From NCBI RefSeq assembly GCF_009914755.1, contig NC_060936.1: a stretch of DNA of 64,000 nt; one strand, given 5' to 3'. Below, piece by piece: positions 4,291 through 45,679 of this stretch. The notes under the pieces are model-generated. The model was not told where the DNA came from and did not search any database. It saw only the letters and a list, made by a program, of their open reading frames with translations. Positions within the stretch are counted from its first letter, which is position 1. The number at the start of each line of letters is the position of its first letter. Source of the stretch: the human T2T-CHM13v2.0 reference genome, Homo sapiens. Both the position numbers and the translations under genes were made by a program.

Positions 4291-4430
4291 TGTCTCAATC
4301 CCAAATATTTTCTGCTTTTCCCTTAGGTCACCCTCCACCCTTCCCCACCCTGCTCTGCGTCTGGAAACTGACTTATAGAGACACATCAATGGACTTTCCT
4401 GCCCTCTGCCTTCCTGTTGGGTTTGCCAAG
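4291..4430 (+). mobile_element. LTR33-like (ERVL) 5' fragment
   Basis: CCACCCTTCCCCACCCTGCTCTG...GCCCTCTGCCTTCCTGTTGGGTTTGCCAA resembles the LTR33 5' end. Confidence 0.6.
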
Positions 4431-4619
4431 GACCAGTCCTGTCTTACCAATTCCATTTTCAATTTTATTAGTGTAGGGACTAATCTTTACACTTTTGGAT
4501 CCACCCTTTAATACTATCCCCAGTTCCTTATAGATGCCCCTCAATTTGTGGATAATGACTGCCATATTTATCATAGTTCCCTAGGAGGAAAACTGATAAC
4601 CTTCTTTTGGAGATTCACA

Positions 4620-4760
4620 ATATAAAGCATAATATCAAAGGCTCTGAGAAGGCCTGCACATAAACAAACAAAGCAAGCATGCAAACACATTTAATTTTGT
4701 TTAGCCTAGCTTATCCCAAACTTCTTAAACCATGGATCCCTTTTTCATGCAGTAAGTGTT
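4620..4760. mobile_element. MER103-like hAT fragment
   Basis: AAGGCTCTGAGAAGGCCTGCA...TCCCAAACTTCTTAAACCATGGATCCCTTTTT. Confidence 0.55.
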
Positions 4761-6274
4761 AACGTCTTATAGACTTAAAGTCCTTCTGAGCATAGTTTAG
4801 GAAACTTTGTCTTTTCCTATGTGAGTTCCAATTTTCATGTCCGTCCCACAAACTTTCCCTTATGTCAGAGTTAAGACTCAGAGAAGTCAAGCGGCTTCTG
4901 CACAGTAATTTAAGCTCACGAGTTGCATAGCTGGAATTTGAGCCCATGCCTGGACACAATGAAAGCCATATTTTTGCCCCTGTACCATGCTCTTCCTAAG
5001 ATAGGGTGGATTGCCTGGGATTCACCTTAATTATTTGATAAAAATAATTTGTAACTAACCATCGACTGCTTCTCAGTGAATGCTATTCTGAAGGACTTGA
5101 TGACAGTTCATTCTCCGCTCCGACAGTCTGCTTTGCATTACCAATTTGTTAAGAAACTATTTTTGTAGAGCTGTGCAAAAGGAAACTTCTATCCAGACTG
5201 TCTGAATTATCCAAAAATTCTGAACTGATGGCATCCAAATGAATAAGACTTTACAGAACTGTATCTCAAGAATTGATTAGATTTGTCAGTTTTCCTGGGA
5301 TATAAAGTCCTGGATGGCTTTCCTGAAAGTATGCTAGAACATAAATAATCAGTAAGTTTTCAGGTGAATTCCAGGGAGTCCATGGGAAAAAGAAAACTCT
5401 GGCTGTCTGCGTGGAAATCTGTAGTCTACCTGACAAAACCTTACACATAGTCCCAAAGTATGAGCTCTATGATGAGGGTGTTTGGGGGAAAAAAAAGCAA
5501 AGATTTTTTTTTTTAAAGTTAAAACACTTTCCAGCAACCAGTGTTAAGATTTAACAGCCAAGAAGGTCAGGGTGATGAACTTGCAAACGTTCATGGACAC
5601 TAGGCACCCAGTCAACTCCCCAAGCTCCAAAATGCTAGAGGGTCAGCAAACAAGGAAAACATGTTTTCCTAACTAAGAAAAAAATGACGTCTTGGATTGA
5701 TATATTTATTTATTTATTTCCCATCAGGGGATTTTTGGAAGGCCATGTCTCTTGGCTTCCTGAGTCTCTTCCTCCTCTGTTTTAGGGAGGGTGATATGTA
5801 AGGCAAAGCTTACAAAACAAGATTTGGACCATTCTCCTTTATGTTTTCCAGAGGCTACATACTAGTGATGAAAGATCTGACCCAGGAATTTAAGTTCATG
5901 AGTGGGGTGGGGCGGTGAGGGGATGCTGGGGGGCCTTCCATCCCCAGCTTCTGTCTGTCCCTGTGGCTGGACTCCAACCACTTTATTTTTGAAGGGCTGA
6001 GCCAGTCCTGTGGTTCACTGGTGGATCCATCTTTCCTTACAAGGAAGTGGCTTTTTGCTTCTTTCTGGGATGTGGGGTCTGGGATGTGTTTACGCTCAGC
6101 AGAGCTTTGGATGAGTCTCAGTATCCACTCATTTATTCAGTGAGTACTAATTGAACATGACTGTATGCCTGGCACTCTGCTAAGCATTGAAGATGTCAGA
6201 AACAAACAACACTATGTCTATCTTCTTAGGGATCCTGATATTTTTTGAATTACGTGGCACCAGTTCCCACTATA

Positions 6275-28015: not shown

Positions 28016-30699
28016 TGGGCTAGTTGGGCTAGTTGGCCAGTCATAGTTAGGCTCCCTCTTGGAAGCATCACATGTCGAGATTCAGATTCTGAGAAGTTAT
28101 GTGAGCGTGCCCAAGTCACCCAATGGTAGAGACTTGAATTCATGTCTATCTGTTTCCAAAGTTTGAATATTTAGCTGATTCATCTGCTTCAGTGAGTGTA
28201 AAGACCTTTGTATTCTGTGTAGGTCGTGGCAGAGGACAAGTAGAAGGGGGTATTAGCAGAGAAATGCCACCCAAGAAAAGGCTGTGTGGGGTAGTGGAAC
28301 AACCCATGGCTAGAGTCCCAGCTCTGTACTTATATTTATTCAATGTATTCAACATTATTTGGCAAGCTCTTTCTATGTGGCAGGCACTGTCCTAGGCACT
28401 AAAAATAGAGCAGTGCTCATAAACAAACTCTTGCATTTTCCTTTTTAGTCATCTGTCCCCTGCAAGTTATTTCACTTCTCTGAGCCTTGCTCTCCTGCCC
28501 TATAAGATGAGGGTATTAATACCTACCAGATGAGAGCAGTCAATTTGTTTTGTCACTAGGAAAGTGAGGACATTAATATCCAATCTTGCTGGGAGAATTA
28601 AATCAGGCAAATGTAGATAGATCCATTTATTGCACCAACAGTTATGGACCATCTACTGTGTGGCAGTGGCTGGGCTGAGCTCTGAGAACACATCCAGTGA
28701 ACGAGCCAAATATAGTTTCTGCTGTCTTCGACCTTGCACTGAGTAAAGTTGGATATTAAGCAAAAAATCACAACCATGACTAGGGTTTTCAATGGATATG
28801 CAGGTAGCCACAGTGACTGCTATTATTCTTCCTTTTCCTTGCCCTGCTGGTGCTTGTTTCCTCCTACTTCAAGGTCTCCAGAGTTGGGGGAGCTCACAAC
28901 GCCTCTCTTGTTTGTCTAGGGAGTCCTGAAAAAGAGAATAACATTTTGATGCTGAACGGCAGAGGCAGGGAAGAGTTAAAGTAGAAAAGTTCCTCAAAGG
29001 GGCAGCAACCAATGAGTCTGCTGCCATCCTGGCTGAGTCTTGCTGTCCCTTTGCCATGGCTTTAGGTTTATGGAAAAAAAATAGGCTCTTTAGAGAGGAA
29101 GAGAGGAAGTCTGTTTTCCTACAGCTCAGCTGAAAATCTCATCGTTCTGTGGAATTCTTTTCCCCCTTTAATGTGCACAGTTTTGGGATGAATTTTGCTC
29201 CTCTGTCAGTTTCCTCTGGATGTTTTATTGTAGGGAGGACTTATGGACTCTGCAACCAAACATAAATGGCCAAGTCCTAATTCTGTAGTTCCTTGGTTCT
29301 AGCAGCATGTGCCTCGAAAGGTGCCTGGCATGCAGTAGGTGCCCCACAAACATTTGCTGGATGAATTGCCGCCTGGGGACCCCAGGGTAGTCATAATATT
29401 CTGGAAGATCTGTCTTTTCACTCCTCTTGTTTGCAGAAGAAAAAAGTGTCAATCTGTCTTTCTGCATTGGCAGGTCTGTCAGGGTAGAAATACATCAGGG
29501 TTCTAGATAATTCATGTTTGAGGAACATCTGCTAGATATGTCATTCCAGTGGCATTTTACAGGTCAGGTCCTTGAAATATTTAAAAAAACCAGGAGACAA
29601 GCACATCACACCCATTTTTCGCTCCCACAAGAACAGGCTATGAAATGATTCTACTTTGACCCCTAATTCATTTCCGTGGGGATTCTGCTTATTAGTTGCT
29701 GCAAGTCTCATGTGTCTGGCAGAGATGTGTCTGTCTTCTTGTTGGCTAATGGTTTTGTCATTAGCCTGATGAATAGACTTGATCTAACATTCTTCAACTC
29801 CAGAGTAGGACGGACTCTTCCCCTCACCACCCTGCTGACCCTGTCAGTTTACAGCACAGAAATCTTCCAGTTGGGTTTTGTAAGGAGGCAGATTAAACAG
29901 AAAAAGTGTTTCTTCTTCCCTGGCCAAGTCATTTTGGATTGAGAGCGTACAAAAGTTGCTTTGTAGTTTGAGAACTGCTCATAAAAGTAAATTTCTTTTT
30001 TGATGCAATGATTAGAATTGCTTTGCTAGAAGAAAGTTACATATAACTGGTTACTTACTAGCATATCTTGTATATTGTAATAACCTCAGGCACATGATAG
30101 GCATATTTATTAAATGAATAGTCATTATGTAAATGGAAAAAGATAAATAAGACCAAAGGGTGACAGATATTCAACAAATATTTGATGAATAAAGAAGTTA
30201 ACAGATAAAATAAATGAATGAAAGTAGTTCCCAGGATGAAAGAAACATGAAGTCACTGCGACTGGAATGTGCTAGAGAATTGCAGGGTGTCTGTCAGCAG
30301 ATAATGGTGCCCTTGCTTTTCTTCCCACAATTCGCAGGGGAGGTTTCTCTGCACCTGCCTTTGTCCAAGGTGACTCATTTCTTCCGGCCACAATTGTTTG
30401 ACCAGAAATGGCATCTAGCCCCAGGGGACAAATAAAAAATATCTTCCCCAAGAAGACAGAACTGAAGCTTAGATGAAGATTCTGTGTTGCAGGGACAGTA
30501 ATATGCTCATGTGACTACTACAGGAAGCCATCTTTCGCTTGCCAATGAGATAAGGAAGAAGGAAAAGATAATCTGCCATGAGGAAGAAGAATAAAATAAT
30601 AGAAAAGAGGGAGAGAGAAAGAGAGAGGGAGGGAGGGAGGGAGAGAGGGAGAGAGAAAGAGAGAGAGAGAGAGAAAGATTGAATCAGGAAAGAGAAATG

Positions 30700-30955
30700 G
30701 GCCGCACCCTGTTGCTAATGTCTGTAATCCCAGCACTTTGGGAGGCTGAGGTGGGTGAATCACCTCAGATCAGGAGTTCAAGACCAGCCTGGTAAACATG
30801 GTAAAACCTGGTCTCTACTAAAAATACAAAAATTAGTGAGGTGTGGTGGTGCATGCCCGCTTAAACCTGGGAGGCGGAGGTTGCAGTGAGCCAAGATCGC
30901 GCCACTGCACTCCAGACTAGGTGACAGAGTGAGATTCCGTCTCAAAAAAAAAAAG
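30700..30955 (+). mobile_element. AluS with ~38-bp internal deletion in the right arm
   Basis: GTGCATGCC|CGCTTAAACC junction lacks TGTAATCCCAGCTACT...GAGAAT; TSD AGAGAAATG. Confidence 0.9.
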
Positions 30956-31073
30956 GGTGGGGGGAGAGGGAGAGAAAGGGAGATAGAGAAATGTCTAGAT
31001 ACCTGAGATTCTTCTAGTTCCCAGATATAACCCCAAATCTTTATAATTTCTTCAACATTTTCCCTGAAGTTAG

Positions 31074-31392
<319 letters not shown>

Positions 31393-33599
31393 CCCCAAAC
31401 ACTCTTAACATATGTGCCCAGAGATGAGACATTGTAGCCTTCATGGTCTTTGTCCATTCAAAGGCAAAGACTGGAACTCTCAAGCAGCCTTGCTAATACT
31501 TCCAGTTCCCTTCCTACTTCTTAAGGTCCTAGGTTGTAATGAGTATTTTTTTTTCTTTTTAAGTATAAAAAAAGAAGAAGGAGGAGAAGAAAGCCGAAGG
31601 GGGGAGGAGAAAGAAAAAATGAAACCCCTTTGCCCTCAAGTCTGTGAACTGGCTGATGAGGCGCTGCTATTTGATTTGGTTGCCACTCAAGGCTGAGGTT
31701 TTTCTTCTCCACTTTTCGCATGGACTTCTGTTGCTTTTTCTTGGCTTCTGGTTGCTCAAGAGGACTGAAGGGTGTCCAGGGCAGGGCTGTGGTGTTTGCA
31801 TTGGCTGTCAGAGCTGAAGGGGCGGCAGAAGGGCCTGACCTCCACCTCAGAGCAACAGGAGTTTCCTTTCTGGGGTTCCTTGTCTCGGGGATTAGGACAA
31901 AACACACCCACAGTTGAGCTTCAGTAAAACCTGATTAGAGTCTCCCGGAAGTGTTTGTTTTGTGGGGCTACCACTACAGATCATGGGAAACAAATGCTTC
32001 TTCTCTTCCTCTCTCTTCTCTTCCCCAGCAAGGGAGGCTGGTGGTTTTGGCTGCCTTGGTGGAAAAACCAATACTCTTCCGCAAATGGGTTCTTCTCACA
32101 GCCGTGAATTAGTGTTGGCACAGACGCCTCTGAGTGGGGATCCCACAAAGGTGCAAGCCTTTGCAAAGACAGGACCTCAAAGACGTGGGGTGGATGGGGC
32201 GGGTGGGTCAGGTAGAGAGCCAAGGAGGGCAGTGGGTGTCCCTAAATGGAAATGCTGACAAAACTGAGAGTTAGGAGGGACAAGGTGTCCTGGCACCTTT
32301 CTCCGTGTCAGACAGGGCACTTCAGCCAGTTTGCAAGGTGTTGGCCAAGGCATCTGTGAAACCCAGCAGCCAGAAACCTCATGACTGGCTGGGAAAAGCA
32401 CAATTATAACAAGAAGAAGAAGAAAGGAGCTTGTTTTATGAATACATTTGCAGAGCCTGGAAACTGCAGGGAAGGGGAAGTTTAACATAATGGGACCCTC
32501 GTGGAATCCCTCTCATCCGCCTAAAACACACACCTCTGTGGTTTCTTTTCTCCCCGATGTCCTTTCTCAAGCACCACCTCCACCTTTGCCACCCTGACCC
32601 CATTGGCTGGCCTTTTCCTCCCCTTGCCCTCACCAATCAGCTGGGTCTGCCAGTCCGAAGGCTAGGGCATGACATGTTTGCACCATGCGTAAACACCACT
32701 CACCATTAAGAGCTCCCTCTAATGAGAAACAGAGCCACAGAGGGGAAGCTTCAAAGTGGTTAACGGAAGGAAGTGCCTGGAATGAAATCCGACTTGATGT
32801 CCCAATTAATACGTCCCCTAATTCTATTTCCTGCCCTTGCGGGCTTGCAGCCGCCTCCCTCTAATTTCTGTGGGAGACAGAGACTCGGCTGATGGGGAGG
32901 AAGAAACCTGGAAATGGGGCGGCTTCACGGATGACTTGATACACAGGCAATGGGCATATTAGGACAAATTAGGGAATTAAGGAGGAGGAAAAAAAAGAGA
33001 CGACGACAGTCAGAGGAAATGTCATCTGAAGTAATAGTATTAATGGAGACTGGGGCATTGCTGGAGAGGGTGGCTGGAGAAATTGAGAGCTCCAAACACC
33101 AGCCAAATTGTCTTTTATTTCAGGCTGGGAGAGAGTAGCCATTGCCAGACCCTTTCTTCTCTGCTCTAGGATGTTGGGGGAAAAACAGCCATGGGCCTGT
33201 TCAGCAGGATTAGAGGCAGGCCCCAATCTCAGCCCAAAGTCTGTTGTATCCAGGTGAAGGCTTTATGGAAATAAAATGAAATATAAAGACATCAGCCTGG
33301 CAATAGTCAAGTTAGAATAAGTGGTGCGCTCTGGAAGTGTGAAAAGACCTTTGGAATATCTCTTTATAGTCTGGTCAGCCTGAAAGTCCACCATTTGATT
33401 GCTCTTTTTCAGATAGGCATTGCCCTCTCTGTATCGTCCCATACAGAGAAAGATGCTTGCAGAGGGTAAAACGTGGCATCCCTGAGGCAGTGGGATAAAG
33501 AGTTTGTCAGGGAAATCAGACACCCCAGAAGAAGTGGTGACCAGAAGACCCTCATCCATTCGGCTGCGATATTTGAGCAATCTCCGATTGATTCCCATC

Positions 33600-34208
33600 T
33601 TCAGTTTCTCCAGCACTCTTTTCTATCCTCTGTCCATCTTGCACACACCTGCCTCATGATCTTTCTAAAATACAAAACCCATCTTGTCTTCACCCCACTT
33701 AAATATCTGGTGGGGCTCCCCAGTGCCTGTGTGGTCAAGTCTGGCCACTTTAGCATGGCATTTAAGGCCCGTCATAAACCATATGAGTTTTCTCTGGAGC
33801 CTGGCTATCCTCCACTCTCCTCCTGGGCCTCCACCCAATCCCAGGGTCTCCCCAGCCTGCCAAACTCATTCCTTCTCCATAGCCTTGCACATGGTGACTT
33901 CCTCCAGCTTTATCTTTCTCCCTCTTCTTTGCCCAGGGGGCTCCCTGTTTACCCAACAAGTCTAAGTTCAAATGGCGTCTCCTTATTAAAGCCTTTCCAG
34001 GCATCTAAGTCATCTCTCTGTGTTCCTGGGGGCCGCTCTTTGAATTTCTGCACCATCCCATATCCCACTGCATTGAAATAATTTGCTTTCGTTTCTGGTT
34101 TCCCCAGGAGATTGAATCTCCTAGAAGACACACAGAGGACAGAACTAATGGTACACGTTTCTGTATATGTGCAGTGTTTGACATAATATCAGAGCTCAAT
34201 AAATGGAG
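33600..34208 (+). mobile_element. L2 fragment
   Basis: GATCTTTCTAAAATACAAAAC...CTTTAGCATGGCATTTAAGGCCC...GCTCAATAAATG. Confidence 0.8.
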
Positions 34209-34409
34209 AGAGAAAGAAGGGAGAAAGAAACAGAGGGACACAGCAAGAGATAGAAGAAAGGAAGTGCAGAAAGAGCAGGAAACATCTAGAACTGCATTGC
34301 ATTGTCCACGGCATAATTTTATGATTATTTAACCCAGCCACTCACTTAGATGTAAGATTTGGCTGAATTCATTTTAACACTCCTTCAGTTTAAGCAAATT
34401 GGCCAGGCT

Positions 34410-34610
34410 ACACAATGCAACCAATGTTTAAGAGCCTATGCTTTGGAAATTTGGACGCAAATTCCCCACTGGGGAAGTCACTTCCCCTCTCTGGGCCTTA
34501 GCTCTCTTATCAGTAAAATGGGAACAAGATGACCTTGAGGAGCAAACAAGGTGAAATACTTAAAGTGCCTTGCCCAGTGCCTAATACGTAGTAAGTGATC
34601 GATAAAATCT
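34410..34610 (+). mobile_element. MIR
   Basis: AAGTCACTTCCCCTCTCTGGGCCTTAGCTCTCTTATCAGTAAAATGGG. Confidence 0.8.
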
Positions 34611-35426
34611 AATATATATGAGAGTCTTAGCTTGGGAATTCTGCTGTCTTCTCAGGCCATCTGAGGTTCTTTCTCCCTCCTATTACTGGCCTCTGCTGCC
34701 CGGGCTCTGCCCTATAATCTGAATTGTTTGCTCTTCCTGCTGCCAGGATAGACAACCCAGGGAGTAGTCCTTGCATCCATGCCAACAGTTACTGGCATTT
34801 TGGTTACTGGGAATGATGTCACTCCTGTGTCTTGGCTCCTTAAAGGATCTGATGCATGCCACACACATATGCAAATAAAAGAAAGTTTCCTGGTTATATC
34901 CTCTACTTGGGAGCAGAAGTGGTGGCAAAAATTTGCAGGTCTGAGATCATATGTCTGAGTTCCTCTGCTGTGGTTTTCCAGACAGTGAAGAACCTGGAGG
35001 AACTGCTGAGGCCACACAGTGGGGCTTTTCCATTAACGTAAACCTCTGCACAACTTGAATTCTTTTTCTCACGTCCCTAGGACCTTGTGTTCTTGTTTGG
35101 AGCAGAAGTCACCACTCCCTGGCCAGACAGTGCCTGTTCATGTAAACATGGATGCAGTGGTCAAAGAATTCCGTGTTGGAATTTCTCCTTAGGAAATCAC
35201 TGCAGACAAGAGAATGTTCTTAAGGTCCACAGAAGATGGCTTCAAGGTTGGCTAGGGCATCACCCGAGTCTTTCTCCAAGGGGATGAACTGGGTGCTAGT
35301 GGTATTGAGAACTTACCTGAGGCCTTTCTATTGGAATAGTCTGTGGATGTGTTTGAGTCAAATACATTTTACTATTGACAAACTTTGGTCAGGAACCAGA
35401 GAGTCTCCCTTTTCTTGACAACTCAC

Positions 35427-35559
35427 GGTATTGGCAGAGTTCTTCCTTCTTCTCATCCTCCTTTTCCAAATACTTCCAGATCCATGATTTACTGGAGATC
35501 CTTCTTTGGGGTTTGAGACTTTTTAAAGTCTCCATTTGATCGACTTGAAAAAGATGGCA
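35427..35559 (-). other. Candidate spliced exon (133 nt; alternative donor at 35317 gives 243 nt)
   Basis: Minus strand: TTAATGTTAACCTTTCAG|TGCC acceptor, ACC|GTGAGT donor, second donor CAG|GTAAGT; purine-rich body; motif evidence only. Confidence 0.3.
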
Positions 35560-35584
35560 CTGAAAGGTTAACATTAAGTGTCAT

Positions 35585-35996
35585 AATTGCATGATGTGCT
35601 ACCCAGATCCATTTCAGGACTGAAGGACTTATTCTCCCCAGCTTCTAGGGGTGTTGCCAGCTGAATGCTTTTAGCTCCCAGCCCTCTGTAGGTATTGACC
35701 TCAGCTGGAAAGATCCCTCTCACTCAATATTCCATCTTCCTCCAAGGTCAGCCCACATCCAAAGATTGGTGTGGCAAGAGAATTAAGGCATATCACCCTG
35801 TCCCCAGCTGAAGGGTCATCCCATTTTCAGAACCCCCATGGGGTCGGTTGAGGCCTTTGCTGAGACTGCATCACAGCTCAACTTCTCCTTCCACCCAATC
35901 CTGATTTTTTTCCCCTCCCTTCTAGCTCGAATATATGTCCTGCACATTAATCTTTACCCCAGAATGTTTCCTAGAGAATCTGCAACCTCAAGGTCA
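35585..35996 (+). mobile_element. LTR16A-like ERVL LTR (arm 1 of inverted duplication)
   Basis: CAGATCC...CAGGACTGAAGGACTTATT; GCTGAGACTGCATCACAGCTCAACTTCTCC. Confidence 0.8.
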
Positions 35997-36059
35997 GACA
36001 AGGTGAAAGGGGCCAATGTGAGTCTGGAGTACAAACATCAAGACTTCTGCTCAAGACAT

Positions 36060-36480
36060 CCATGGCCAGTTCCTGAGTGCTTACTAGGTACCAGGCACTG
36101 AACCAGGAGCTGTAGATGAGGTGATGAACAAAGCTCATGGGACCTGCTCTCATGGGACCATATTTAGAATGCAACAGACACTGAATTTATAATTATTTAC
36201 AGGGGTGATGAGTAGTAAGAAGAGAAGGTAGAGGATGCTAGAGAAGTAAATAACGGGTATCACACCAATCTGGGGGATAATATAAGGCTTCCTGGAGGCA
36301 GTGACGGTTGGATTAGGACCAAAGGATGATGAGGACAAGTTAGCCAGGCAAAGATAAGGGAGGGAAAGACAGTAGCTAAGAACAAGTAGAGTTTGGAGGA
36401 TGTATGCCATGACAATATAATTCACAGGACTCTGGGAGAGGGGGGGAGCATGGTATAAAAGGAGTCTGGGTGCATGAGGC
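36060..36480 (-). mobile_element. L2 fragment
   Basis: TGAGTGCTTACTAGGTACCAGGCACTG; AAGGCTTCCTGGAGGCAGTGAC. Confidence 0.75.
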
Positions 36481-36499
36481 AGTGGCTTGGACCACTTGG

Positions 36500-37003
36500 A
36501 TAATCCGGAAAGCTCTGGATCACATTTACTGCTTCACTCAAAGATAGGTAGAATCTATTTCTCCTCACTCTGAATCTAGCTGGGCTTGTGACTTCCTTGA
36601 CCAATAGGCTATAGCAGAAGTGATGCTATGCCAGTTCTTGGCCTAGGCTCTAACAGGCGTGGTGATAGCAACCTTCACTTTGGAAGCCTGCCATCAGGTT
36701 GTAAAGAAGCTCACATTACTACTGAATAATGAAACATCCCACGGAGGACAAAAGACCACATGGAGAAACACTGAGCTTCCCTGCATCTGAGGAAGCCCAC
36801 GTGGACCTTCCAGCTCAGCCCAGCAAACAGCTAAATGCAGTAAGTGAACCCAAACAATGCCCCTAAACTGGGGCCAAAGAACCACCCAGCTATGCCTAGC
36901 CTGGATTCTTGACCCACAGGATTGTGGAAAATGATAAATCATTTTTGTTTTGAACCGTGAAGTTTTGAGTTGGTCTGTTACACAGCAATAGCTAACTGAA
37001 ACA
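36500..37003 (+). mobile_element. MLT1G/H-like LTR
   Basis: GGGCTTGTGACTTCCTTGACCAATAG; ends TGTTACACAGCAATAGCTAACTGAAACA. Confidence 0.8.
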
Positions 37004-37044
37004 TTCTCCCTCAGGAAAAGAAAATCCCTCATACACATCTATCT

Positions 37045-37260
37045 TTAACAGCTCACAATTACTGAGTGCCAACAATGTACCAGACTTTGTGCTATGGGAG
37101 TTTTATATTTTATTTCATTGAAATCTCACCAAAAACCTGATGAAGTAGGCATTTATGTCCATTTTAGATGAGAAAAAAAAAAGAGGTTCAGAATAAATGT
37201 GACTTGCTCAAGTCACTCAGCTAGTGAAGTGGTGAAATATGGATTTGAACCCAGAACCCA
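37045..37260 (-). mobile_element. MIR
   Basis: CCATTTTAGATGAG...GTGACTTGCTCAAGTCAC...GGATTTGAACCCAG. Confidence 0.8.
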
Positions 37261-37264
37261 GGTG

Positions 37265-37580
37265 GTGTTTTTTTGTTTCATTTTTTGTTGTTGTTGTGGT
37301 TTTTTTGTTTTTTTTGTTTGTTTGTTTTTGAGAGAGTGTCTCTCTCTGTCACCCAGGCTGGAGTGCAGTGGCACGGTCTCGGCTCACTTCAACCTTCAAG
37401 CGATTCTCCTGCCTCCTGAATAGCTGGGACTGCAGATGAGCACCACCATACCCGGCTAATCTGTGTATTTTTAGTACAGATGGGGTTTTGTCATGTTGGC
37501 CAGGCTGGTCTTGAACTCCTGACCTCAGATGATCTGCCCGCCTCAGCCTCCCAAAGTGCTGGGATTACAGGCGTGAACCT
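37265..37580 (-). mobile_element. AluS with small internal deletions
   Basis: (GTT/TTTG)n tail, both arms. Confidence 0.9.
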
Positions 37581-38425
37581 ACTGACTTTTCTTGCATGGG
37601 CTTGGGGAGTTAGGTCAAGGAGACCTGGGCCAAACACTGGATCTATGGGAAGATTAGTCTGTGGATGGCAGATACCACTGAGCTAAGGCTTGTACTTTTC
37701 GGACAGTAATTCCTGCATCTCAGGTACTGCCATGGCTATCCAATGCCTCCTAGGATGCCTGGTTCCTCAGTCAGTAAGATTTGTCACACAGAGGTCAGGG
37801 CAGGGAGAGACCAAACCCAAACCGCAGTTCGTAGAGCTGGTTGTTAGCCCCAGTTTTGCCTCTAACTTGCCAGACTTGGGTCATGTCTTCCCGACCCTGT
37901 ACTCCTATTTCTCCATCTGCAAAATGAGAGCAGTGTTTTCCTGGCATTTCCAGATTCTTCTTATCAGCAAACCACCAAATCTGTTACACACTCAGTTTGT
38001 TCATCGTCTTACATTTGTAGACTTGTCCAAAGATAAAAAATTTATTACCTTGGGGATTTAAACATTCTAGTGGTAGATTTTTTTTGGATGCACCTGAAAA
38101 CGAATTTTAAAAATGCCTGTATGTTACCACCTGCAATCACCCCACGTGCTGCTGTGATGTGGATACTACCTTGGTAGACCTGGACCCAGGTGGTCTAGGT
38201 GGGCCTGTTGTTCTGGTAGAGGGCCTAAGTCTTGGGCAGAAAAATGGGTTTCAAGCCTGGGTCCCGCTAACCTGGCCAAATGACACCTCTTAAACCAGAC
38301 TTTGAGGAAATGAGACACAAACCACCCAGCAGCCTTGTTCTTCAACTACAATTACCCCATTAACAGCAAAACTATCTCATTCTGGATTTTCTCCATCTCT
38401 GAGCAGCCAAGCTTCAGACAAGGGG

Positions 38426-38826
38426 CTCACATTGGCCCCTTTCACTTTGTCTGTCTTGGCAGTTGCAGACTCTCTAGGAGCCAGGTTCTTGGGTGAGGAT
38501 TAATATGCTGGGCATATATTGGAGCTAGAAGGGAAGGAAAAGAATGAGGATTGGGTGGAAAGAAAAGTTCAGCTGTGATGTAGTCTCAGCAAAGGTTCAA
38601 CTGACCCCATGGGGGTTCTGAAAATGGGATGACCCTTCAGCTGGGGACAGGGTGATATGCCTTAATTCTCTTGCCACACCAATCTTTGGATGTGGGCTGT
38701 CCTTGGAGGAAGATGTGATATTGAGTGAGGGGGGATCTTTTCAGCTGAGGGCAATACCTACAGAGGGCTGGGAGCTAAAAGCATTCACCTGGCAACACCC
38801 CTAGAAGCTGGGGAGAATAAGTCCTT
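38426..38826 (-). repeat. Inverted copy of 35623-36022 (LTR16A plus ~26 bp of flank)
   Basis: Hand alignment ~91% over ~400 bp; 97 bp identical (35749-35845 = reverse complement of 38603-38699). Confidence 0.95.
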
Positions 38827-38921
38827 GAACCAAGGCACTTTTCAGGCTCTTTGCAACCAACCCAGCCTCGCCTTTTTCTCCAGGTGGGCAGGGAAACTGG
38901 AGGCTTCTCATGCCACACAGC

Positions 38922-38993
38922 AGCCCCTCATTACAGAATGAGAGCTTCCACAAGTCAAGCCCCTCATTACAGAATGAGAGCCTCCACAAGTCA
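38922..38993 (+). repeat. 36-bp tandem duplication, 2 copies, 1 mismatch
   Basis: AGCCCCTCATTACAGAATGAGAGC(T/C)TCCACAAGTCA x2. Confidence 0.95.
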
Positions 38994-39289
38994 GGCTCAG
39001 GAGAAAGACACTAGGCAGGGAGGAAAAACCAAGCTGAGAAAAGGGAGTTCAGTTCCTCAATACTGGATGGTGAGAACTTCCTCCTCATCTTTCCTTCTAG
39101 AGAAATTTGGTATTTTAAGAGCCCCTTGTCTGAGGCTTGGCTGCCAGGAGATGGAGAAGATCCAGAATGAGATTGTTCTGCTGTTAATGGAGTAACTGCA
39201 GCTGAAGAACGAGGCTGCTGGGTGGTTTGTGTTTCATTTCCTCAAACTCTGGCTGGGTCACTGGCGTGTTACATTAAGTTTCAGAGCTA

Positions 39290-39650
39290 GCTGTGTAGAG
39301 TAGAAAGAGTACTGGATGGAGAGAGAATAATAGTGCATAACAACAACACCCGTCACCATCACCACCACCACCATCATCATCATCAGTAACATTCACTGAA
39401 TGTCTACATTCTTGACATGGCTTAACTTACCTGATTGAAACTCTCAACAACCCCTTATGAGATAGGTTCACTCTTCCCCCGTTTTACAGATAAATAAAGG
39501 GGTATAAAGAGGTTAAGTCAGTTGATCAAGATTTTACACCTGGTAAATGCAGGTATGAGATATAGCTGCAAGATGCAACACTGAACTTGTTCCTTCCTTC
39601 TCTCTGGGCCTTGGGGATCCATTCTGTAAAATGAGGGTTTGAGCAGATGG
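39290..39650. mobile_element. MIR fragments with a (CAC/CAT)n tract
   Basis: CCCCGTTTTACAGATAAA...GAGGTTAAGT core. Confidence 0.7.
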
Positions 39651-39949
39651 ATGGTGGCTTAACAATTTTATTTTTAAAAAATCATGGGCCATTTCTTCAA
39701 ATGAAGCTGATCAGAAAGTGTAAGATATAAACAAGAACCAAGTGAGATTGCCCTGTTGATGTAAAGTGAAGGTATTTAGAATTCATTTACAAACCGGAGG
39801 GAAAAGAGCTTCTCTTAAGGTGCTTTCTAACTTTGTTGTTTCATGTTTCTGAAAATCAAATTTGTGGAAAGCTCAGAGTCTCTGTGGATGGGTTAAGGTG
39901 TAGTTCTTGATGCTGCAGTTCAAGGTAGCAAAGGTCCTTGATTGGAGAC

Positions 39950-40360
39950 TTTCCACCATTCATCCCCCTCACATGTCAGGCTCTTATCGAACTGAGTACC
40001 TAGCCTGATGCAGAGCAGAGGGATAAAAGGAAGAAGAGATGTTCTTTCTTCCTTTTAGATTTTTGTAACTTTTGGGGAAAAGGGAGTGGAGAGGGAGAGA
40101 CAAGTTCATGGGTCATTACAATGTTGAGTGATAAGTATTTTAACATAAATAAGTACAGAGCACTGAGAGAAGGGGCTTTTAATTCATACTCAGGATAGGA
40201 AGGCTTTCTGGCATGAAAAACGGTTAATAGAAAGAGCTAAAGGGAGTGGGGGACATGGGGCGAGGAAAACATTTCAGGGAGTGGGAGACGCGTGTGCAAA
40301 GCCACAGAAGAGCGAGTCATTGAGAAACTGTAAGCTGTGTAGTGTTACTGGGATGCAGTC
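39950..40360 (-). mobile_element. L2 fragment
   Basis: GGAAGGCTTTCTGG; GGGAGACGCGTGTGCAAAGCCACAG. Confidence 0.55.
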
Positions 40361-41329
40361 ATGGCCAAAGGCATTAGCAATTGACGGCTATCTATTTTAT
40401 GGCCTTCTCCCTCTGCTCCCACCATCCTATCCTCTTCTCAATGCTCTATTCTGCCTCAGCACAATGAGGAGTACAAGGGGCAAAAGGTTGATATTTGGCA
40501 AGTACTTGGTTCTTGGTTAAATCCATCATAAGAACCCACACATACTTAGGTTTTCCAAGAAACTCAGCTCTTGCCTTCTTAATACAAACAGGAAACAGAA
40601 AACTGCTACCCATACTCAGTGGTAACCTGGACATTTCCAGATTGAGTAAATAAGATGACATCATGGGAGGAGAAGACATAAGAAAGCGTGGTGTGTTTCA
40701 CTGCAATGAAAAGCAGCCTTCTAGGGGGAAGCTGGTCCGCACCCCTCAAACCCGTTCTCCCCCATTTCTCTCCCTAGTGTCTGATTCTTTCTGTTGCCTC
40801 TGTGACTCACTATTTCACAAGGTGGTTTACTTGTATTCCCTCTCCGGTGATGCATCATTACCAGAAAATAGGTCTCATAGCGCACGGTGAGAAACCAAAA
40901 GGCAAGGGGTAAGAGAGAGTGGTTGCCTAATGGGTGCCTCATGAAAAACTGGTTGTGAAATCTGAGTTCACAACCCCACCTGCAATGCCCTGGATGTCTG
41001 ATCATAGAGGCCTGGCCCTGTGTGCCAAGAGTGAGAGCCCATAGTTTGATGTCACAGAAAGCTGGGTTACCACAAACTTTATTTTGTCTGATATTCATAT
41101 TACAAAACCAGCTTCCTTTTGATTCGTATTTATTTAGAATTTTTAATCTTTAATTTTCAACTTTCTATTAATTTATGTATGCCTCAGGAAAAGCACATGG
41201 TTGATTTAAAAAAAAATCATTCCCAATTCTCTGTCTTTTAACTGAAGAGTTTAATCCCATTATGATTAATGTGATTCCAGACTAGTGTGGATTTATTTCT
41301 ACCTTCTGATTATGAGGTTTCAACTTACA

Positions 41330-42147
41330 TTTATTTTTTAAGACTGTATTTATTTTTAAAGCAGTTTTAGGTTCCCAGGAAAATTGAGGAAAAGGCAGAG
41401 AAATATCCCATACACCCTCTGCCCCGACGTGCACAGCCTCCTCCATCATCAACACCCCCTCCCACCGCCAGAGTGCTACCTTTGCTGCCACTGGTGAACC
41501 CACATTGACACGTCATTATCTTCCAACTCCAAAACCTACAGAATGTACAACACCAAGAGTGAACATCAGAGTTCACTGTAGGTTTCAATAAATGTATAAT
41601 GACATGTACCCACCATTACAGTATAACACAGAATAGTTTCATTGCCCTAAAAATCCTCTGTGCTCTGCCTCTTCATTCCTCCCTCCCCTTTAATTCTTTA
41701 CAACCACTGATCTTTTTACTGTTGCCATAGTTTTGCCTTTTTGAGAATGTCATGTAGTTGGAACCATATAGTGTGAGCCTTTTCAATTGGCTTCTTTCAC
41801 TTAATAATATGCATTTGAATTTCCTCCATGTCTTTTCAAGGCTTGATAGCTCATTTCCTTGCAGTGCTGAATAACCCTGTATTCCATTGTCTGGATGTAC
41901 GATGCTTTATTTATTCATTCACCTACTGAGGAACATCTTGGTTGCTTTCAACTTTCGGCATTTATGAATAAAGCTGCTGTAAACATCTGTGTGCAGGTTT
42001 TTGTGTGCATATAAGATTTCAACTCCTTTAGGTAAATACCAAGGAGTGTGGTCGCTGAATCATATGGTAAGAGTATGTTTAGTTTTGTAATAAACTGCCA
42101 AACTGTCTTCCAAAATGGCTGTGCCATTTTGCATTTTCATTAGCAAT
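41330..42147 (-). mobile_element. L1MC1/2-like 3' end nested in an older L1M fragment (~41100-42500)
   Basis: GCAGTTTTAGGTTC; AATAGTTTCATTGCCCTAAAAATCCTCTGTGCTCTGCC; ACTGCCAAACTGTCTTCCAAA. Confidence 0.85.
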
Positions 42148-42869
42148 TTCTACTTAATCACATTTTCATCTTTTTTCTTTTTGTCTTTGCTTTTTTCTTC
42201 CTCCTTTTCTCTTTTGTATTAGGTGGAGAGAATTTTTTTTTACCTTTTCCTTCCCACCCACCTTTTCTTCTCTCCTTCTTCAGAAGTTATTGGTTCTATT
42301 TCTATTTTCTAAATAGGCACATTTGATTCTTACCATGCTTATGGTTAATCACTGTAATCAATGTAATAATCCATATAGCCCTTCCTGAGCAAAATGAGGT
42401 CCTCAGAACACTTAACCTCCAAACTTTCCCCCTTTCTAGCATTTATATTCTTTTTGTCTACCCACACTAGAGCCCCAACTCCAGCCCCTTCCTCTCTGTA
42501 TTATGTTGTAAGTAATGTCACCTCCCTGATTCTCAGATTCTTCAACTAAAAAAGAGTAGAAGTCATAACATCTTCTTTGGAGGCTACTTGGATGGCCAGA
42601 AACAATGTACATGAGGTGAAAATGTTCCAGGCCATCCACGCATTTATTGTAAAATCTGCTAAAAGTTGAAGAAGTCAGAGAATGATTGCAGCAGGACAAT
42701 AGGGAAGGACTTTTATTCTCCTTTCCTGCCCCTTCCTTATTTTGTCCTATTTGAACACGCTTTTTATTTTATAATCGATGTCTATTAGGACCTCACTTCC
42801 TGTCAAGGCGATGAAGTCTTACAAAGATCCATTTGCACTGAACTCTCCACGTGCAGGAAGTTACCGCCT

Positions 42870-43390
42870 TGCTCTCTGGACCTCCTGTCTCTTTTCTCTG
42901 AATCTTCATTCCCTCCTGTTCCTCTGTCTCTGACCCTGTCTCCATGTCTGTCTCTTCCACTGCCTGGCTCCTTCCTCTTCTTCACTTGCTTCTGACAGTC
43001 AGGGTTTCTGCCTTGCCCCGTCTTTCTCTCTGTCCCTCCACGTCTTTGTTTTTCTCATCTCCGCTTCTCTCTCCCTCCGTGTCCAGGTCTCTTCCTGTCC
43101 ATCCATCTCTCAGCCTCAGCCTAGCTCGGTCCTCCACTCTGATTCTCTCCCATCCATCTCCCTGGGCCTGACAGAGGCTCTTTGTCGAGTCTCTTCCTCT
43201 GTCTGCCCCCATCCGTTGTTTTCTCTGTATGTCGCTGGCTGCGCATGTGCCACTGTTTCTATCATTTTCTCTCCATCTAGCCATTGATCTCTGATTCCCC
43301 TGCTCCGCTTCTCTGTCTCTCATCCCTGTCACCACCTCCCTCTCTGTCACTTTCTTATTCTCTCCCTGCCTCTTTGCACGCTCTTTGCAC
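42870..43390 (+). repeat. Degenerate CT-rich low-complexity region
   Basis: Repeated TCTC/CTGTC units. Confidence 0.7.
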
Positions 43391-44524
43391 ATCAGGCCCG
43401 GCCCCAGCCCAGGGTCTCTGGGCTCCAGGAAGCCAGCCAGGGGCTGTGCAGGCTGCGCTGTAACTCAGGAACTCCGCCAGCAATCATTTCATTAGGCAGG
43501 AATGGCGTTCCCATTACCAGATAGCAGGCCTGCTTCTTCCCCGCCATGGCCCCCTCCCCGCTGCAAAGCCCCCTTGCAACTTCCTGCTCGCAGCAGCCAC
43601 ACAAGGCCTCATTCTAATCCTCCAACTTGTCTGTTTAGTGTCTTTGGAGAGGGGAAAGGAGCAGAAAAGTAGCTTGTCTTTTATTTTTATTTGCCTTCTT
43701 TTTTTTCCTTCCTCCAGATATCCCCCTGGGGCACCGGCCTAGAACAGAGCAACAAATATTTACTAATTCCATTAACAGAAGAGAGTTGGAATTTTTTTTT
43801 CCCAAGCGAATATCCGAGGCCCCAAGTTCATGGTGAGCCCTCTCCCCCGCATGGCCCCCTCTCCCCCCACCTCCTCCCTACACGCCCAGGACTTATATAT
43901 AGTTCACTCAGTGCCATTTCCCCAATTTTTTCTGAAGTTCAAGACAAGTTGAAGGGTCAAAAAGGCAAAGGGTGTTTTAGAAGTTTAGCAGACAGCTTTT
44001 GGTACAAGGAAAAGAGAGGGAGAGCTGGAGAGAGGGAAACAGGGTGAAGAGGCAGGAATCTGGCTCGCATTAAGCTGGGAGGTTCCAACCATTGATTCGC
44101 TCTGGAATTATGGCTTAAAAAAATTGCAAGACATGGTTTATTCATGAGGGTTCTTTTTTTTTCTTAAGTAGCCACCCAAAGTTACACTTTGGTTCACCAA
44201 GACGAAGACTCATCCTTCCTCTCTCTATGGATCTTTCAGGTAGGACTGGGAGTAAAGGGAGGGAGGATGGGAGACGATAGATTTTCAAGACAGTGAGTTC
44301 TGAGAACATAGAAGCATCTTCTGGCCAGGCCTATTCAATGTCTTTACCTTCCCTGCTTCTTAGGATAAACCAATGACAATTCTTTGCAAGGGGAAGGGAG
44401 ATCTCTTATGGGAAGGGGGAACTTCTTCTGAAAGGGCAACTCCTGACCTCTGGTAAAAGAGGACGTAGAGGAAAAAATACGGGATTAGGCTGATGAATGC
44501 TACATTGGAAACAGGTTTAGTGAT

Positions 44525-44979
44525 TGCATTCATCTCCTAGAGCTGCCCCCAACAAATGACCACCAACAGGTGGCTTAAAATGAGAGAAATGTATTCTTCC
44601 ACAGTCCTAGAGGCCAGAAGTCTAGAATCAAGGTGTCATCAAAGCCACACTCCCTCTGAAGGCTCCAGGGAGGAATCCTTCCTTGCTTCTTCCAGCTTCT
44701 GATGGCCCCAGGCATTCTTGGCTCATGCCTGCATCACTCCAATCTCTGTTCCCATGTTCACATGGCTTTCTCGATGTGTATCAAATCTCCCTCTCCTTTC
44801 TCTGATAGGGACATTTGTCCTTGGGCTTAGGGTCCACCCTAAATTAAGGATGATCTCATCCTAAGATTCTTACATCTGCAAAGACCCTATTTCCAAATAA
44901 AGCCACATTCACAGTTACGTGGTGGGGGATGTTAGGACTTGGGCTTAGGTATTTGGGAGACACCATTAAACCTACTACA
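44525..44979 (-). mobile_element. MLT1B/C LTR
   Basis: GAGGCCAGAAGTCTAGAATCAAGGTGTC; ACATCTGCAAAGACCCTATTTCCAAATAA. Confidence 0.87.
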
Positions 44980-45679
44980 GTGATCATAGAGTGCTTCTCA
45001 ACAATGCCACATGTGGAAGTCAATTAAAAGCAACCTGGAGCAACACAGCTGGAGAAACGCTTGGTGCTGAGTTCTTTCTCTTCTCTTTCCATCCTGCTTA
45101 TTACAAGGAAAAAGCCTTAGCTGGGTGCTAGGGTCCTTGAACACTTTCTTACCCCCTTGTGAATCCTCCTTTTTAAGAAAGAGAGATGACATCTCTGGAA
45201 GTCAACCTTCAGCAGGTTAAATAAATCCAGTATTTATTATACACTTGATTCACATGACCTTCTATTTATGAAAATAGATACTGGTCTTCCCCTGATGTCA
45301 TGACATGTAGCTTCCTTTTGGATTAAATTAAATTTGAGCAATTGATAAGCAATTGAGTTGAGAAAAATATTAAGTAGATAAATAATGGAAGTAGTACATA
45401 ACCATGGCAAGTGTGCATTTGCTGCACAGGTTAAGGAAAATTGGGAAATACTGAAGTGGCATGCTGGTTTTCCACAACAGCCCAACACCTGTGAGGTTTA
45501 CCAGCACGAGGGGGGTTAAGACAGGTTCAGTCCGCTGGAGTCTGCTGTTTCTCCTTGAACCTGAGCCACTGTTTCTCATGGTTATATGCATTGGGTTTCC
45601 CCATGAGATTTTATTTGGGGGTGGGAAAAACCCCCAAAGTTCCATAACTAAAAGAAAGCTTAACACATCAACCTTCTCT

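What the first reader, a model, noticed from the sequence alone, without database searches (positions are those of the whole stretch)
35623..38826. Homogenised ~400-bp inverted duplication of an ancient LTR16A bracketing a 2.4-kb candidate invertible segment
Seen: 35623-36022 and the reverse complement of 38426-38826 align at ~91% (about 37 differences by hand). Identity is graded: 97 bp identical in the core (35749-35845 / 38603-38699), ~94% on the outer side and ~82% on the inner side. Similarity continues ~26 bp past the apparent LTR 3' end (GTGAAAGGGGCCAATGTGAG), and arm 2 lacks the LTR 5' end that arm 1 has. Established: independent copies of old ERVL LTR16 are far more diverged than this, and nearby inverted repeats undergo gene conversion and mediate recurrent NAHR inversions. 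Inference: an old local inverted duplication, not two insertions, whose core is still being homogenised. The 2403-bp spacer may flip within or between species.
Basis: partly seen in the sequence, partly recalled or inferred. Interest (0 to 1): 0.75.

Follow-up and report, generated by a model that had tools for sequence, protein, structure and literature searches.

The report
Old LTR partly copied in reverse nearby
A very old retroviral LTR remnant and a few bases of its flank were later copied in reverse 2.4 kb away as part of a small three-piece rearrangement, which is a real but ordinary scar of DNA repair and has not been shown to be a flipping switch.

Summary
The inverted repeat is real and as described. 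35623-36022 matches the reverse complement of 38426-38826 at 90.8% (37 differing columns of 403), with a 97-nt identical run.

The arms are not two LTR insertions. The family's similarity runs from about 35579 to 36000. Arm 2 lacks the first ~44 nt of the LTR, and both arms carry 22 nt beyond its 3' end. Other genomic copies are only 67-86% alike over shorter stretches.

The middle copy runs on for 134 nt that match 39119-39252 at 90%, not the left flank. So 38295-38826 (minus strand) is a 532-nt composite of two nearby templates, both inverted, joined at a shared GAG.

My best reading is one complex templated (template-switch type) rearrangement in the primate lineage. A short gene conversion probably followed in the outer half (3.6% against 16.2% differences).

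Conversion is not proven, because derived changes are patchy between the copies. The duplication's age is bracketed only at 8-90 Myr. Whether the spacer inverts could not be tested. The arms fall below published length and identity ranges for recombination-driven inversions. The name LTR16A rests on print and indirect matches.

The parts
35579..36000 (+). Solo LTR of an ancient dispersed family (LTR16 group of ERVL by print and indirect match). This is the original copy, complete at both ends: it starts TGT and ends ACA.
   Evidence: Family similarity starts at 35577-35592 and ends at 36000. The flanks on both sides have no other copies in the genome, so it is a solo LTR. No target-site duplication is recognisable (by eye).
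35623..36022 (+). Left arm (A). It covers LTR positions ~45 to the end plus 22 nt of non-LTR flank, and served as template of the inverted copy.
36023..38294 (.). Spacer S, 2272 nt of single-copy old DNA. It holds an ancient dispersed repeat at about 36524-37011 and a soft-masked SINE at 37238-37581.
   Evidence: Its ends have no paralogue elsewhere: 2 of 2 matches are local and again. The old repeat matches 39 places elsewhere at 69-85% identity. The masked stretch is, with SINE-like self-matches.
38295..38826 (-). Middle composite copy, 532 nt. Read on the minus strand, 38826-38426 copies the left arm and 38428-38295 copies the right piece. The two parts overlap by 3 nt (GAG on the minus strand).
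   Evidence: It is the most diverged member of the family alignment: mean identity to 28 relatives is 0.575, below all 28.
38827..39118 (.). Single-copy stretch G, 292 nt, between the middle copy and the right piece. It contains a 36-nt tandem duplication at 38922-38993.
   Evidence: One search found no paralogue of this part. The tandem pair is family D2.
39119..39252 (+). Right piece (b), 134 nt of non-repetitive DNA that matches the far end of the middle composite in inverted orientation at ~90%.
   Evidence: (3 of 3 genome matches are local).
36020..36022 (+). GAG shared by the end of the left arm (36020-36022) and the start of the right piece (39119-21). It occurs once in the middle copy (38428-38426, minus strand). 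It is either 3-nt microhomology at a template switch or a 3-nt duplication at an insertion site.
   Evidence: Similarity does not continue beyond any of the three junctions: the scores are reached by 64 to 380 of 500 shuffles.

Best explanation
An ancient solo LTR (35579-36000) sat here long before the event. Later, in the primate lineage, one complex repair or replication accident created the 532-nt stretch 38295-38826. This stretch is a patchwork of two nearby templates, both copied in reverse. One is the 134 nt now at 39119-39252. The other is the 400 nt at 35623-36022, which is most of the LTR plus 22 nt of its flank. The two are joined at a 3-nt shared GAG. In the simplest version the patchwork was inserted between S and G (ancestral order L-LTR-S-G-b-R). 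An equally short version has S-B as the ancestral order, with G inverted in the same event.

Shown: the three-piece collinearity, the sharp junctions, the GAG overlap, the truncated LTR in the copy, and the flank carried along.

Inferred: a single event, the template-switch mechanism, and which piece is the original.

Afterwards the outer ~224 nt of the large arms were probably made alike again by at least one short non-allelic gene conversion, which would give the identity gradient. The structure is a scar, not a demonstrated switch. Recombination between the arms is possible in principle but expected to be rare.
For: - The inverted pair and the third piece are each highly significant (E 3e-157 and 1.7e-46).
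- The middle copy is collinear first with the left arm and then with the right piece.
- The switch point has a 3-nt overlap, and no similarity continues beyond any junction.
- The left copy keeps the LTR's 5' end and the middle copy does not.
- Both copies carry 22 nt beyond the LTR's end.
- The right piece, G and the ends of S have no other copy in the genome, so no outside donor is needed or seen.
- S holds an ancient repeat, so it predates the event.
- The two pairs have similar overall divergence (9.2% and 9.6-10.4%), as expected for one event.
- Published replicative rearrangements are complex, include inverted segments from nearby and have 2-5 nt microhomology at junctions (PMC2621351, abstract and passages). 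Small inversions with extra insertions have been ascribed to single FoSTeS/MMBIR events (PMC6748972, passage).
- For conversion: the 97-column identical run has permutation p 0.001 within the arm and 0.0012 over all 537 columns. The change point gives 3.6% against 16.2% differences, p 0.0014.
Against: - No outgroup genome was available, so the ancestral arrangement is inferred by parsimony only.
- Two scenarios need the same number of new adjacencies (three each). A third, a 3.1-kb insertion into a once-contiguous A-b, also explains the GAG.
- Only one of the three junctions shows microhomology.
- Conversion predicts equal numbers of derived changes in the two copies wherever differences remain. 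Observed: inner zone middle 13, left 4, unresolved 8 (28 relatives); outer zone left 5, middle 1, unresolved 1 (19 relatives). The zones differ with Fisher p 0.018, although the pooled 9:14 is not significant.
- With relatives found using the middle copy as query, the inner-zone asymmetry is only 12:7 (6 relatives).
- Given the outer zone's own density, the 97-column run is not unusual (p 0.086).
- Global identity of 90.8% is below the ~92% reported as usual for interlocus conversion (PMC3966225, passage).
Confidence: 0.6

Rival explanations
1. One reading: a simple old inverted duplication whose core is still being homogenised, and whose 2.4-kb spacer flips by recombination between the arms within or between species.
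For: The arms are real, close together (2403 nt) and unevenly alike. Short matching stretches under 50 nt have supported recombination between repeats about 5 kb apart at the alpha-globin locus (PMC2583991, passage). [quoted passage not shown]
Against: The structure has three pieces, not two arms. The longest perfect stretch is 97 nt against a 300-500 nt processing segment in human meiosis. Recombination-made inversions in the 45-inversion set had repeats of 654 nt-24.2 kb at over 90% identity. Recurrence depends mainly on repeat length, mostly 10 kb or more. One past conversion is enough; nothing shows it is ongoing.
Confidence: 0.1
2. The 400-nt arm and the 134-nt piece were once contiguous (A-b). 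A 3.1-kb segment (36023-39118), carrying a reversed copy of that same stretch, was inserted between them and duplicated 3 nt (GAG) of the target.
For: GAG stands on both sides of the 3.1-kb segment and only once in the middle copy. The middle copy shows A and b contiguous.
Against: It needs four new adjacencies and an unknown source for 2.6 kb of old single-copy DNA (S and G). No second copy of either exists in the genome, and S holds an ancient repeat. I saw no terminal repeats when reading the ends of the segment; I ran no search aimed at the segment's two ends. A 3-nt match is weak evidence.
Confidence: 0.1
3. No gene conversion occurred. The duplication is young (outer-zone divergence of 3.6% gives about 8-18 Myr), and the excess differences near the switch point arose in bursts. 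These could be error-prone synthesis when the copy was made, or transient hypermutation.
For: In the inner zone the middle copy carries most of the derived changes (13 against 4; 16 against 3 with the other set) and is the most diverged family member. The left copy is not unusually conserved: 25 of 28 relatives have a higher mean identity. Five left-derived changes lie within 35 nt. Replicative rearrangements are described as error prone; I saw only the title of Carvalho et al. 2013 in a reference list, and the paper is not held. Closely spaced multiple mutations are discussed as a rival to conversion in PMC3966225 (passage).
Against: About 20 extra changes in 300 nt is far more than the few point changes near junctions that I recall for such events (recalled, not from a call). 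The asymmetry is borderline (p 0.049 and 0.096; 12:7 with the other ascertainment). The right-hand pair cannot be polarised because it has no relatives.
Confidence: 0.2
4. Two independent insertions of the same LTR family in opposite orientation, or an assembly artefact.
For: The family is abundant: 567 first-look candidates for one 231-nt query, and about 18,100 solo LTRs for LTR16A-E in print (PMC5134097, Table 1 passage).
Against: Similarity starts inside the LTR and ends in non-LTR flank. Independent copies are 58-66% alike across the 3' half, and a neighbouring independent pair on chrX shows no mutual match. The arms differ at 37 columns, so they are not a collapsed or doubled assembly. 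Reads were not available to me.
Confidence: 0.02

Closest known systems
Complex rearrangements by replicative template switching (FoSTeS / MMBIR), as described for PLP1 and other loci
   Same: Several short segments from nearby templates are stitched together, some in reverse orientation, with 2-5 nt microhomology at a junction and net gain of sequence (PMC2621351; PMC9199198).
   Different: This one is old, fixed in the reference and small (532 nt), whereas the described cases are recent, often pathogenic and kilobases to megabases long. Only one of the three junctions shows microhomology. The mechanism is inferred from the scar alone.
Human inversions bounded by inverted repeats (the HsInv set; recurrent inversions of the haplotype-resolved surveys)
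   Same: A pair of inverted repeats over 90% alike brackets a short unique segment.
   Different: The arms are 400 nt with at most 97 nt of perfect identity, against 654 nt-24.2 kb and mostly 10 kb or more for recurrent cases. No second orientation is known. A second, overlapping inverted pair (134 nt) is present.
Interlocus (non-allelic) gene conversion between nearby duplicates
   Same: A tract of identity significantly longer than the surrounding divergence predicts, a few hundred nt or less in size, as for mammalian conversion tracts (PMC3961182 passage).
   Different: Global identity of 90.8% lies below the ~92% usually seen. The polarity of the remaining differences is patchy. No species comparison was possible.
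The inverted pair at chr4 (locus L089, 4148-4453 and 5122-5426), found here by chance
   Same: Part of an LTR of the same family plus about 135 nt of non-LTR flank is duplicated in reverse, at 84.6% over 306 nt with a 668-nt spacer. One copy is truncated inside the LTR.
   Different: It is a simple two-arm duplication in which both copies are contiguous. The LTR heads face each other there, and the tails face each other here. The breakpoints fall at other LTR positions.

Membership tests
LTR16A / HERV16 group (ERVL, class III) solo LTR | Member of a dispersed, ancient, multi-copy family | tested here: met
   With the left arm as query, 40 matches lie elsewhere (65 candidates, 40 scored). With a relative as query there are 567 candidates, 40 scored, at 71-86% identity. 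With a 5' half as query, 37 matches lie elsewhere. Median pairwise identity among 28 relatives is 0.632.
LTR16A / HERV16 group (ERVL, class III) solo LTR | LTR ends TG...CA, and no internal region attached (solo) | tested here: met
   The left copy begins TGT at 35579 and ends ACA at 36000. Neither flank has repeated sequence.
LTR16A / HERV16 group (ERVL, class III) solo LTR | Target-site duplication of the length typical of the class (5 nt; this length is recalled) | tested here: inconclusive
   No matching 4-6 nt was seen at the ends of the left copy or of 5 relatives, by eye on the alignment. This is expected for copies this old.
LTR16A / HERV16 group (ERVL, class III) solo LTR | Match to a copy that print names LTR16A | tested here: inconclusive
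   No repeat library is on hand. PMC4987104 (passages) places LTR16A, LTR9 and MLT2C1 at DSCR4 exon 1, exon 2 and promoter; the table saying which is which is a closed supplement. 20 of 28 3'-half relatives match chr21 36504947-36505082, within 320 nt of the annotated DSCR4 5' end. The window's own LTR aligns there at 36 of 48, with 0 of 1000 shuffles reaching the score; the middle copy does not (448 of 1000). That element is split by a younger abundant repeat, which fits LTR9 inserted into LTR16A.
LTR16A / HERV16 group (ERVL, class III) solo LTR | Detectable similarity to a copy that print names LTR16B2 (ALK intron 19) | tested here: not met
   None of 48 queries hit the expected place, and none of 120 loci matched it in the reverse search. 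The place was carried over from hg38 using a recalled ALK start, so it may be off. Old subfamilies may also be too diverged for pairwise search.
LTR16A / HERV16 group (ERVL, class III) solo LTR | Association of family members with an ERVL-type internal region (pol) | not tested
   The relatives' flanks share nothing beyond the LTR ends. I translated no flank.
Recombination-prone inverted repeat bounding an invertible segment | Arms long and alike enough: 654 nt-24.2 kb at over 90% identity, and 300-500 nt of uninterrupted identity | tested here: not met
   The arms are 400 nt at 90.8%, with a longest perfect run of 97 nt. Thresholds come from passages seen.
Recombination-prone inverted repeat bounding an invertible segment | Both orientations seen among haplotypes or species | not testable with these tools
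   Only one human assembly could be reached. No reads, pangenome or primate genomes were available.
Interlocus gene-conversion tract | Identity tract longer than chance within diverged duplicates | tested here: met
   The 97-column run has p 0.001 within the arm and 0.0012 over 537 columns, but p 0.086 given only the outer zone's density.
Interlocus gene-conversion tract | Paralogues grouping within species over the tract | not testable with these tools
   No orthologues were available.
Template-switch (FoSTeS/MMBIR-type) complex rearrangement | Templated segments from nearby, some inverted, with microhomology at junctions | tested here: inconclusive
   There are two inverted templates, 292 nt and 2.3 kb away. 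One junction has 3 nt of microhomology and the other two have none. The ancestral empty site was not available.

The most novel reading that the evidence does not exclude
The two overlapping inverted pairs (400 nt around S+B, 134 nt around a+G) make a nested four-state arrangement that has toggled or still toggles in primates, in the gene desert 322 kb from TBX3. Alternatively, this LTR family is itself prone to provoking local reversed copying, since a second such locus turned up on chr4 among about a hundred copies examined.
Probability: 0.04. Interest if true: 0.5.

Novelty: new member of a known kind. Interest (0 to 1): 0.25.

Why it matters
The significance is modest. The locus is a clean, small, fully resolved example of a multi-template reversed duplication fixed in the human lineage. 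It shows how such a scar can pass for a pair of retroviral LTRs or for a simple invertible cassette. It also warns against dating by LTR-to-LTR or arm-to-arm identity, because different parts of the same duplication here give ages from 8 to 90 Myr. If primate or pangenome data showed two orientations, it would be among the shortest-armed recombination inversions known. Nothing suggests a function: no gene, annotated element or known RNA family overlaps it.

Tried and rejected
- Junction-spanning old repeats. I searched the genome with stretches crossing S|B, a|G, G|b, b|R and A|S, hoping an old repeat crossing a junction would show which adjacency is ancestral. Only local matches came back, plus short low-complexity ones at 39341-39538, so the test gave nothing. 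By eye the end of S looks SINE-like (MIR, recalled), but I could not test this without a library and make no claim.
- Extended similarity beyond the three junctions. All scores were at chance level.
- Staggered-break inversion with duplicated ends, and recombination between two complete copies. Neither can produce the observed order A-S-B-a-G-b in one step (reasoning only).
- Constraint on the left copy as the cause of the asymmetry. The left copy is less family-like than 25 of 28 relatives.
- Target-site duplications to type the class. None were seen.
- The ALK intron 19 LTR16B2 as a named comparator. There was no match.
- Known RNA families. There were none in 34500-40000.
- The chrX pair of family copies 2.8 kb apart. 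These are ordinary independent copies; the self-matches there are SINEs.
- A scan of 94 family loci of ~1.1 kb for internal inverted matches. One was found (L024), flanking rather than including the LTR, and I did not follow it up.
- Literature. The main texts of four inversion papers hold no 'chr12' or 'TBX3'. The one '12q24' mention concerns a region rich in segmental duplications. Supplementary tables were closed and may list this place.
Full report
**1.

A BLAST self-comparison of window 30001-45000 finds 35623-36022 against 38826-38426 at 90.8% over 403 columns (32 mismatches, 4 gap openings, E 3e-157). The repeat finder reports the same pair as five collinear ungapped blocks.

A global alignment gives 37 differing columns: 32 substitutions (19 transitions, 13 transversions, 2 in CpG context) and 5 gap columns.

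- The outer flank has 8 differences in 127 columns and the inner part has 29 in 179.
- The best change point is at 35846: 3.6% differences on the outer side against 16.2% on the inner side, permutation p 0.0014.
- The 97-column run has p 0.001.

**2.

A second inverted pair abuts arm 2: 38295-38428 against 39252-39119, 134 nt without gaps, 89.6% identity, E 1.7e-46.

A three-way alignment shows the relation. Read on the minus strand, the middle stretch 38826-38295 is collinear first with the left arm (35623-36022) and then with the right piece (39119-39252), not with what follows the left arm.

- The left arm ends in GAG and the right piece begins with GAG. The middle copy has GAG once.
- Beyond each of the three junctions, similarity is at chance level: the observed scores are reached by 64 to 380 of 500 shuffles.

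The layout is L - LTR start - A - S (36023-38294) - B - a - G (38827-39118) - b - R. B+a is one 532-nt composite.

**3. The repeat family and its limits**

- With the middle composite as query, the genome gives 11 matches. Three are local. Eight lie elsewhere, at 67-80% identity, all within the first 301 nt.
- With the second half of the composite as query, 3 of 3 matches are local.
- With the left arm plus its flank, 42 matches appear. Two are local. The other 40 lie elsewhere, several starting about 31 nt before the arm.
- Pairwise comparison with the saved loci places family similarity from 35592 to about 35924.
- Relatives compared among themselves run on for up to about 175 nt past the position matching 35850. 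An alignment shows their similarity ending at ...ACA, which corresponds to 36000.
- At the 5' end, sharing with 19 independently found relatives rises from 0.2-0.3 of 19 to 7.3 of 19 at 35577-35582 (also 25).

So the LTR spans about 35579-36000. Arm 2 lacks its first ~44 nt, and both arms carry 22 nt that are not LTR. The flanks of the LTR are not repeated elsewhere, so it is a solo LTR. No target-site duplication is recognisable.

Sixteen of 39 alignment rows start exactly at 35808. This suggests that many relatives share only the 3' module, as expected for a group of subfamilies.

**4. Not two insertions**

- The shared stretch is offset from the LTR at both ends.
- Relatives are 58-66% alike across the aligned 3' half and at most 86% over shorter pieces.
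- On chrX, two independent copies in opposite orientation 2.8 kb apart show no mutual match.

One other locus does resemble this one. On chr4, part of an LTR of the family plus about 135 nt of flank is duplicated in reverse, at 84.6% over 306 nt with a 668-nt spacer. Its structure and breakpoints differ, and I take it for a coincidence.

**5. Origin**

S, G and the right piece have no other copy in the genome. S holds an ancient dispersed repeat at 69-85% identity to its relatives, so S predates the event.

The left copy keeps the LTR's 5' end, so it is the original and 'a' is the copy. I counted new adjacencies for each scenario.

- Version (i): the composite B+a was inserted between S and G, copied in reverse from b and then from A. 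This needs three new adjacencies.
- Version (ii): S-B is ancestral, and the same event added 'a', reversed G and copied B to make b. This also needs three.
- Rival: a 3.1-kb insertion into a once-contiguous A-b, with GAG as a 3-nt duplication. This needs four new adjacencies and an unknown donor for 2.6 kb.
- Single staggered-break inversions, or recombination between complete copies, cannot give the observed order.

The pattern has several nearby templates, reversed orientation and short microhomology at a switch. It fits what is described for replicative template switching (PMC2621351, abstract and passages; PMC6748972, passage on single complex FoSTeS/MMBIR events). Only one of the three junctions shows microhomology.

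**6. The identity gradient**

One short conversion covering the outer half would explain it, and mammalian tracts are a few hundred nt (PMC3961182, passage). Two results cut against a simple conversion story.

First, given only the outer zone's own density (8 differences in 224 columns), a 97-column run occurs in 8.6% of trials.

Second, I polarised the differences by counting how many relatives share each arm's base.

| Zone | Relatives used | Middle derived | Left derived | Unresolved | Test |
|---|---|---|---|---|---|
| Inner | 28, found via L016 (unbiased between the arms) | 13 | 4 | 8 | p 0.049 (0.096 without 3 places already found with the left arm) |
| Inner | 27, found with the left arm | 16 | 3 | 7 | |
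| Inner | 6, found with the middle copy | 12 | 7 | 7 | |
| Outer | 19, found via L018 | 1 | 5 | 1 | |

- The five left-derived changes in the outer zone lie within 35 nt.
- The two zones differ with Fisher p 0.018, while the pooled 9:14 is not significant.
- The left copy is not unusually conserved: 25 of 28 relatives have a higher mean identity. The middle copy is the most diverged of all.

Conversion does not predict patchy polarity. Bursts of mutation would, but the number of changes seems too large for what I recall of error-prone repair. I keep conversion as more likely than not, and not as shown.

**7. Ages**

These use assumed neutral rates of 1.0-2.2e-9 per site per year (recalled).

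| Part compared | Age |
|---|---|
| Outer zone | 8-18 Myr |
| Whole arm | 19-42 Myr |
| Right piece | 23-51 Myr |
| Inner zone | 42-91 Myr |

The duplication therefore falls within the age of primates and cannot be placed more closely here.

Relatives of the LTR differ by a median of 36.8% in the aligned 3' half (K 0.51). Halved, that gives more than 100 Myr, which is an overestimate because subfamilies are mixed. In print, LTR16B2 is shared by primates and rodents, at least 70 Myr (PMC5134097, passage). PMC4987104 gives 29-45 Ma for one LTR16A insertion (passage), which disagrees with that.

**8. Family name**

- Print lists LTR16A-E under ERV3/ERVL with the internal part ERV3-16A3_I (PMC5753468, table passage). 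It gives about 18,100 solo LTRs for HERV16 (PMC5134097, Table 1 passage).
- The printed LTR16B2 copy in ALK intron 19 gave no match: 0 of 48 queries, and 0 of 120 loci in reverse. The place was carried over using a recalled offset.
- The DSCR4 5' region is said in print to be built from LTR16A, LTR9 and MLT2C1. It holds a family member 180-320 nt from the annotated gene end, matched by 20 of 28 relatives.
- The window's own LTR matches that element weakly, at 36 of 48 with 0 of 1000 shuffles reaching the score. The middle copy does not match it.
- That element is split by a younger, very abundant repeat (4,569 candidates, 75-91% identity), which fits LTR9 lying inside LTR16A.

So an LTR16-group (ERVL) identity is likely, and subfamily A is unverified.

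**9. Invertibility**

This is not testable here. Published figures make it unlikely to be frequent.

- Recombination-made inversions in the 45-inversion study had repeats of 654 nt-24.2 kb.
- Recurrence depends mainly on repeat length.
- The efficient processing segment in human meiosis is 300-500 nt, although stretches under 50 nt have sufficed between repeats about 5 kb apart.
- The locus is not mentioned in the main texts I searched, and the supplements were closed.

**10. Surroundings**

The locus lies in the gene desert between TBX3 (322 kb away) and MED13L. No gene or annotated element overlaps 35000-39300, and no Rfam family matches 34500-40000.

**Verdict**

The switch idea is unsupported.

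Noticed in passing
L089 (chr4:168707000-168716999) 4148-4453 and 5122-5426: A second locus where part of an LTR of the same family plus about 135 nt of non-LTR flank is duplicated in reverse. Identity is 84.6% over 306 nt with a 668-nt spacer, and one copy is cut off inside the LTR.
   Followed up: partly
window 38922-38993: A 36-nt unit repeated twice in tandem (97% alike), inside the single-copy stretch between the middle copy and the right piece.
   Followed up: no
window 35808: Sixteen of 39 pairwise alignments to other family copies start exactly at 35808, and 21 of 39 start within 35806-35811. Many relatives seem to share only the last ~190 nt of the LTR, which suggests a modular subfamily structure.
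   Followed up: partly
window 35698-35732: Five substitutions and one gap between the arms lie within 35 nt. In all five substitutions the left copy has the unusual base, while 13 of 17 polarised changes further in (35853-35990) are on the middle copy. Neither simple conversion nor a steady clock explains this patchiness.
   Followed up: partly
L123 (chr21:36500500-36510499) 4448-4583 and 5450-5591, with 4590-5406 between: At the 5' end of DSCR4/DSCR8, a copy of this LTR family is split by a younger, very abundant repeat (4,569 first-look candidates) that carries the shared promoter region. This fits the printed statement that LTR16A and LTR9 built this region.
   Followed up: partly
L024 (chr1:219320559-219321641) 92-265 and 910-1083: A 176-nt inverted pair (84.7% alike) flanks a full copy of the LTR family on both sides. 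It may be two SINE fragments or an older element into which the LTR inserted.
   Followed up: no
window 36524-37011: An ancient dispersed repeat inside the spacer, with 39 matches elsewhere at 69-85% identity. It looks like a MaLR-type LTR to me, but that is recall only.
   Followed up: no
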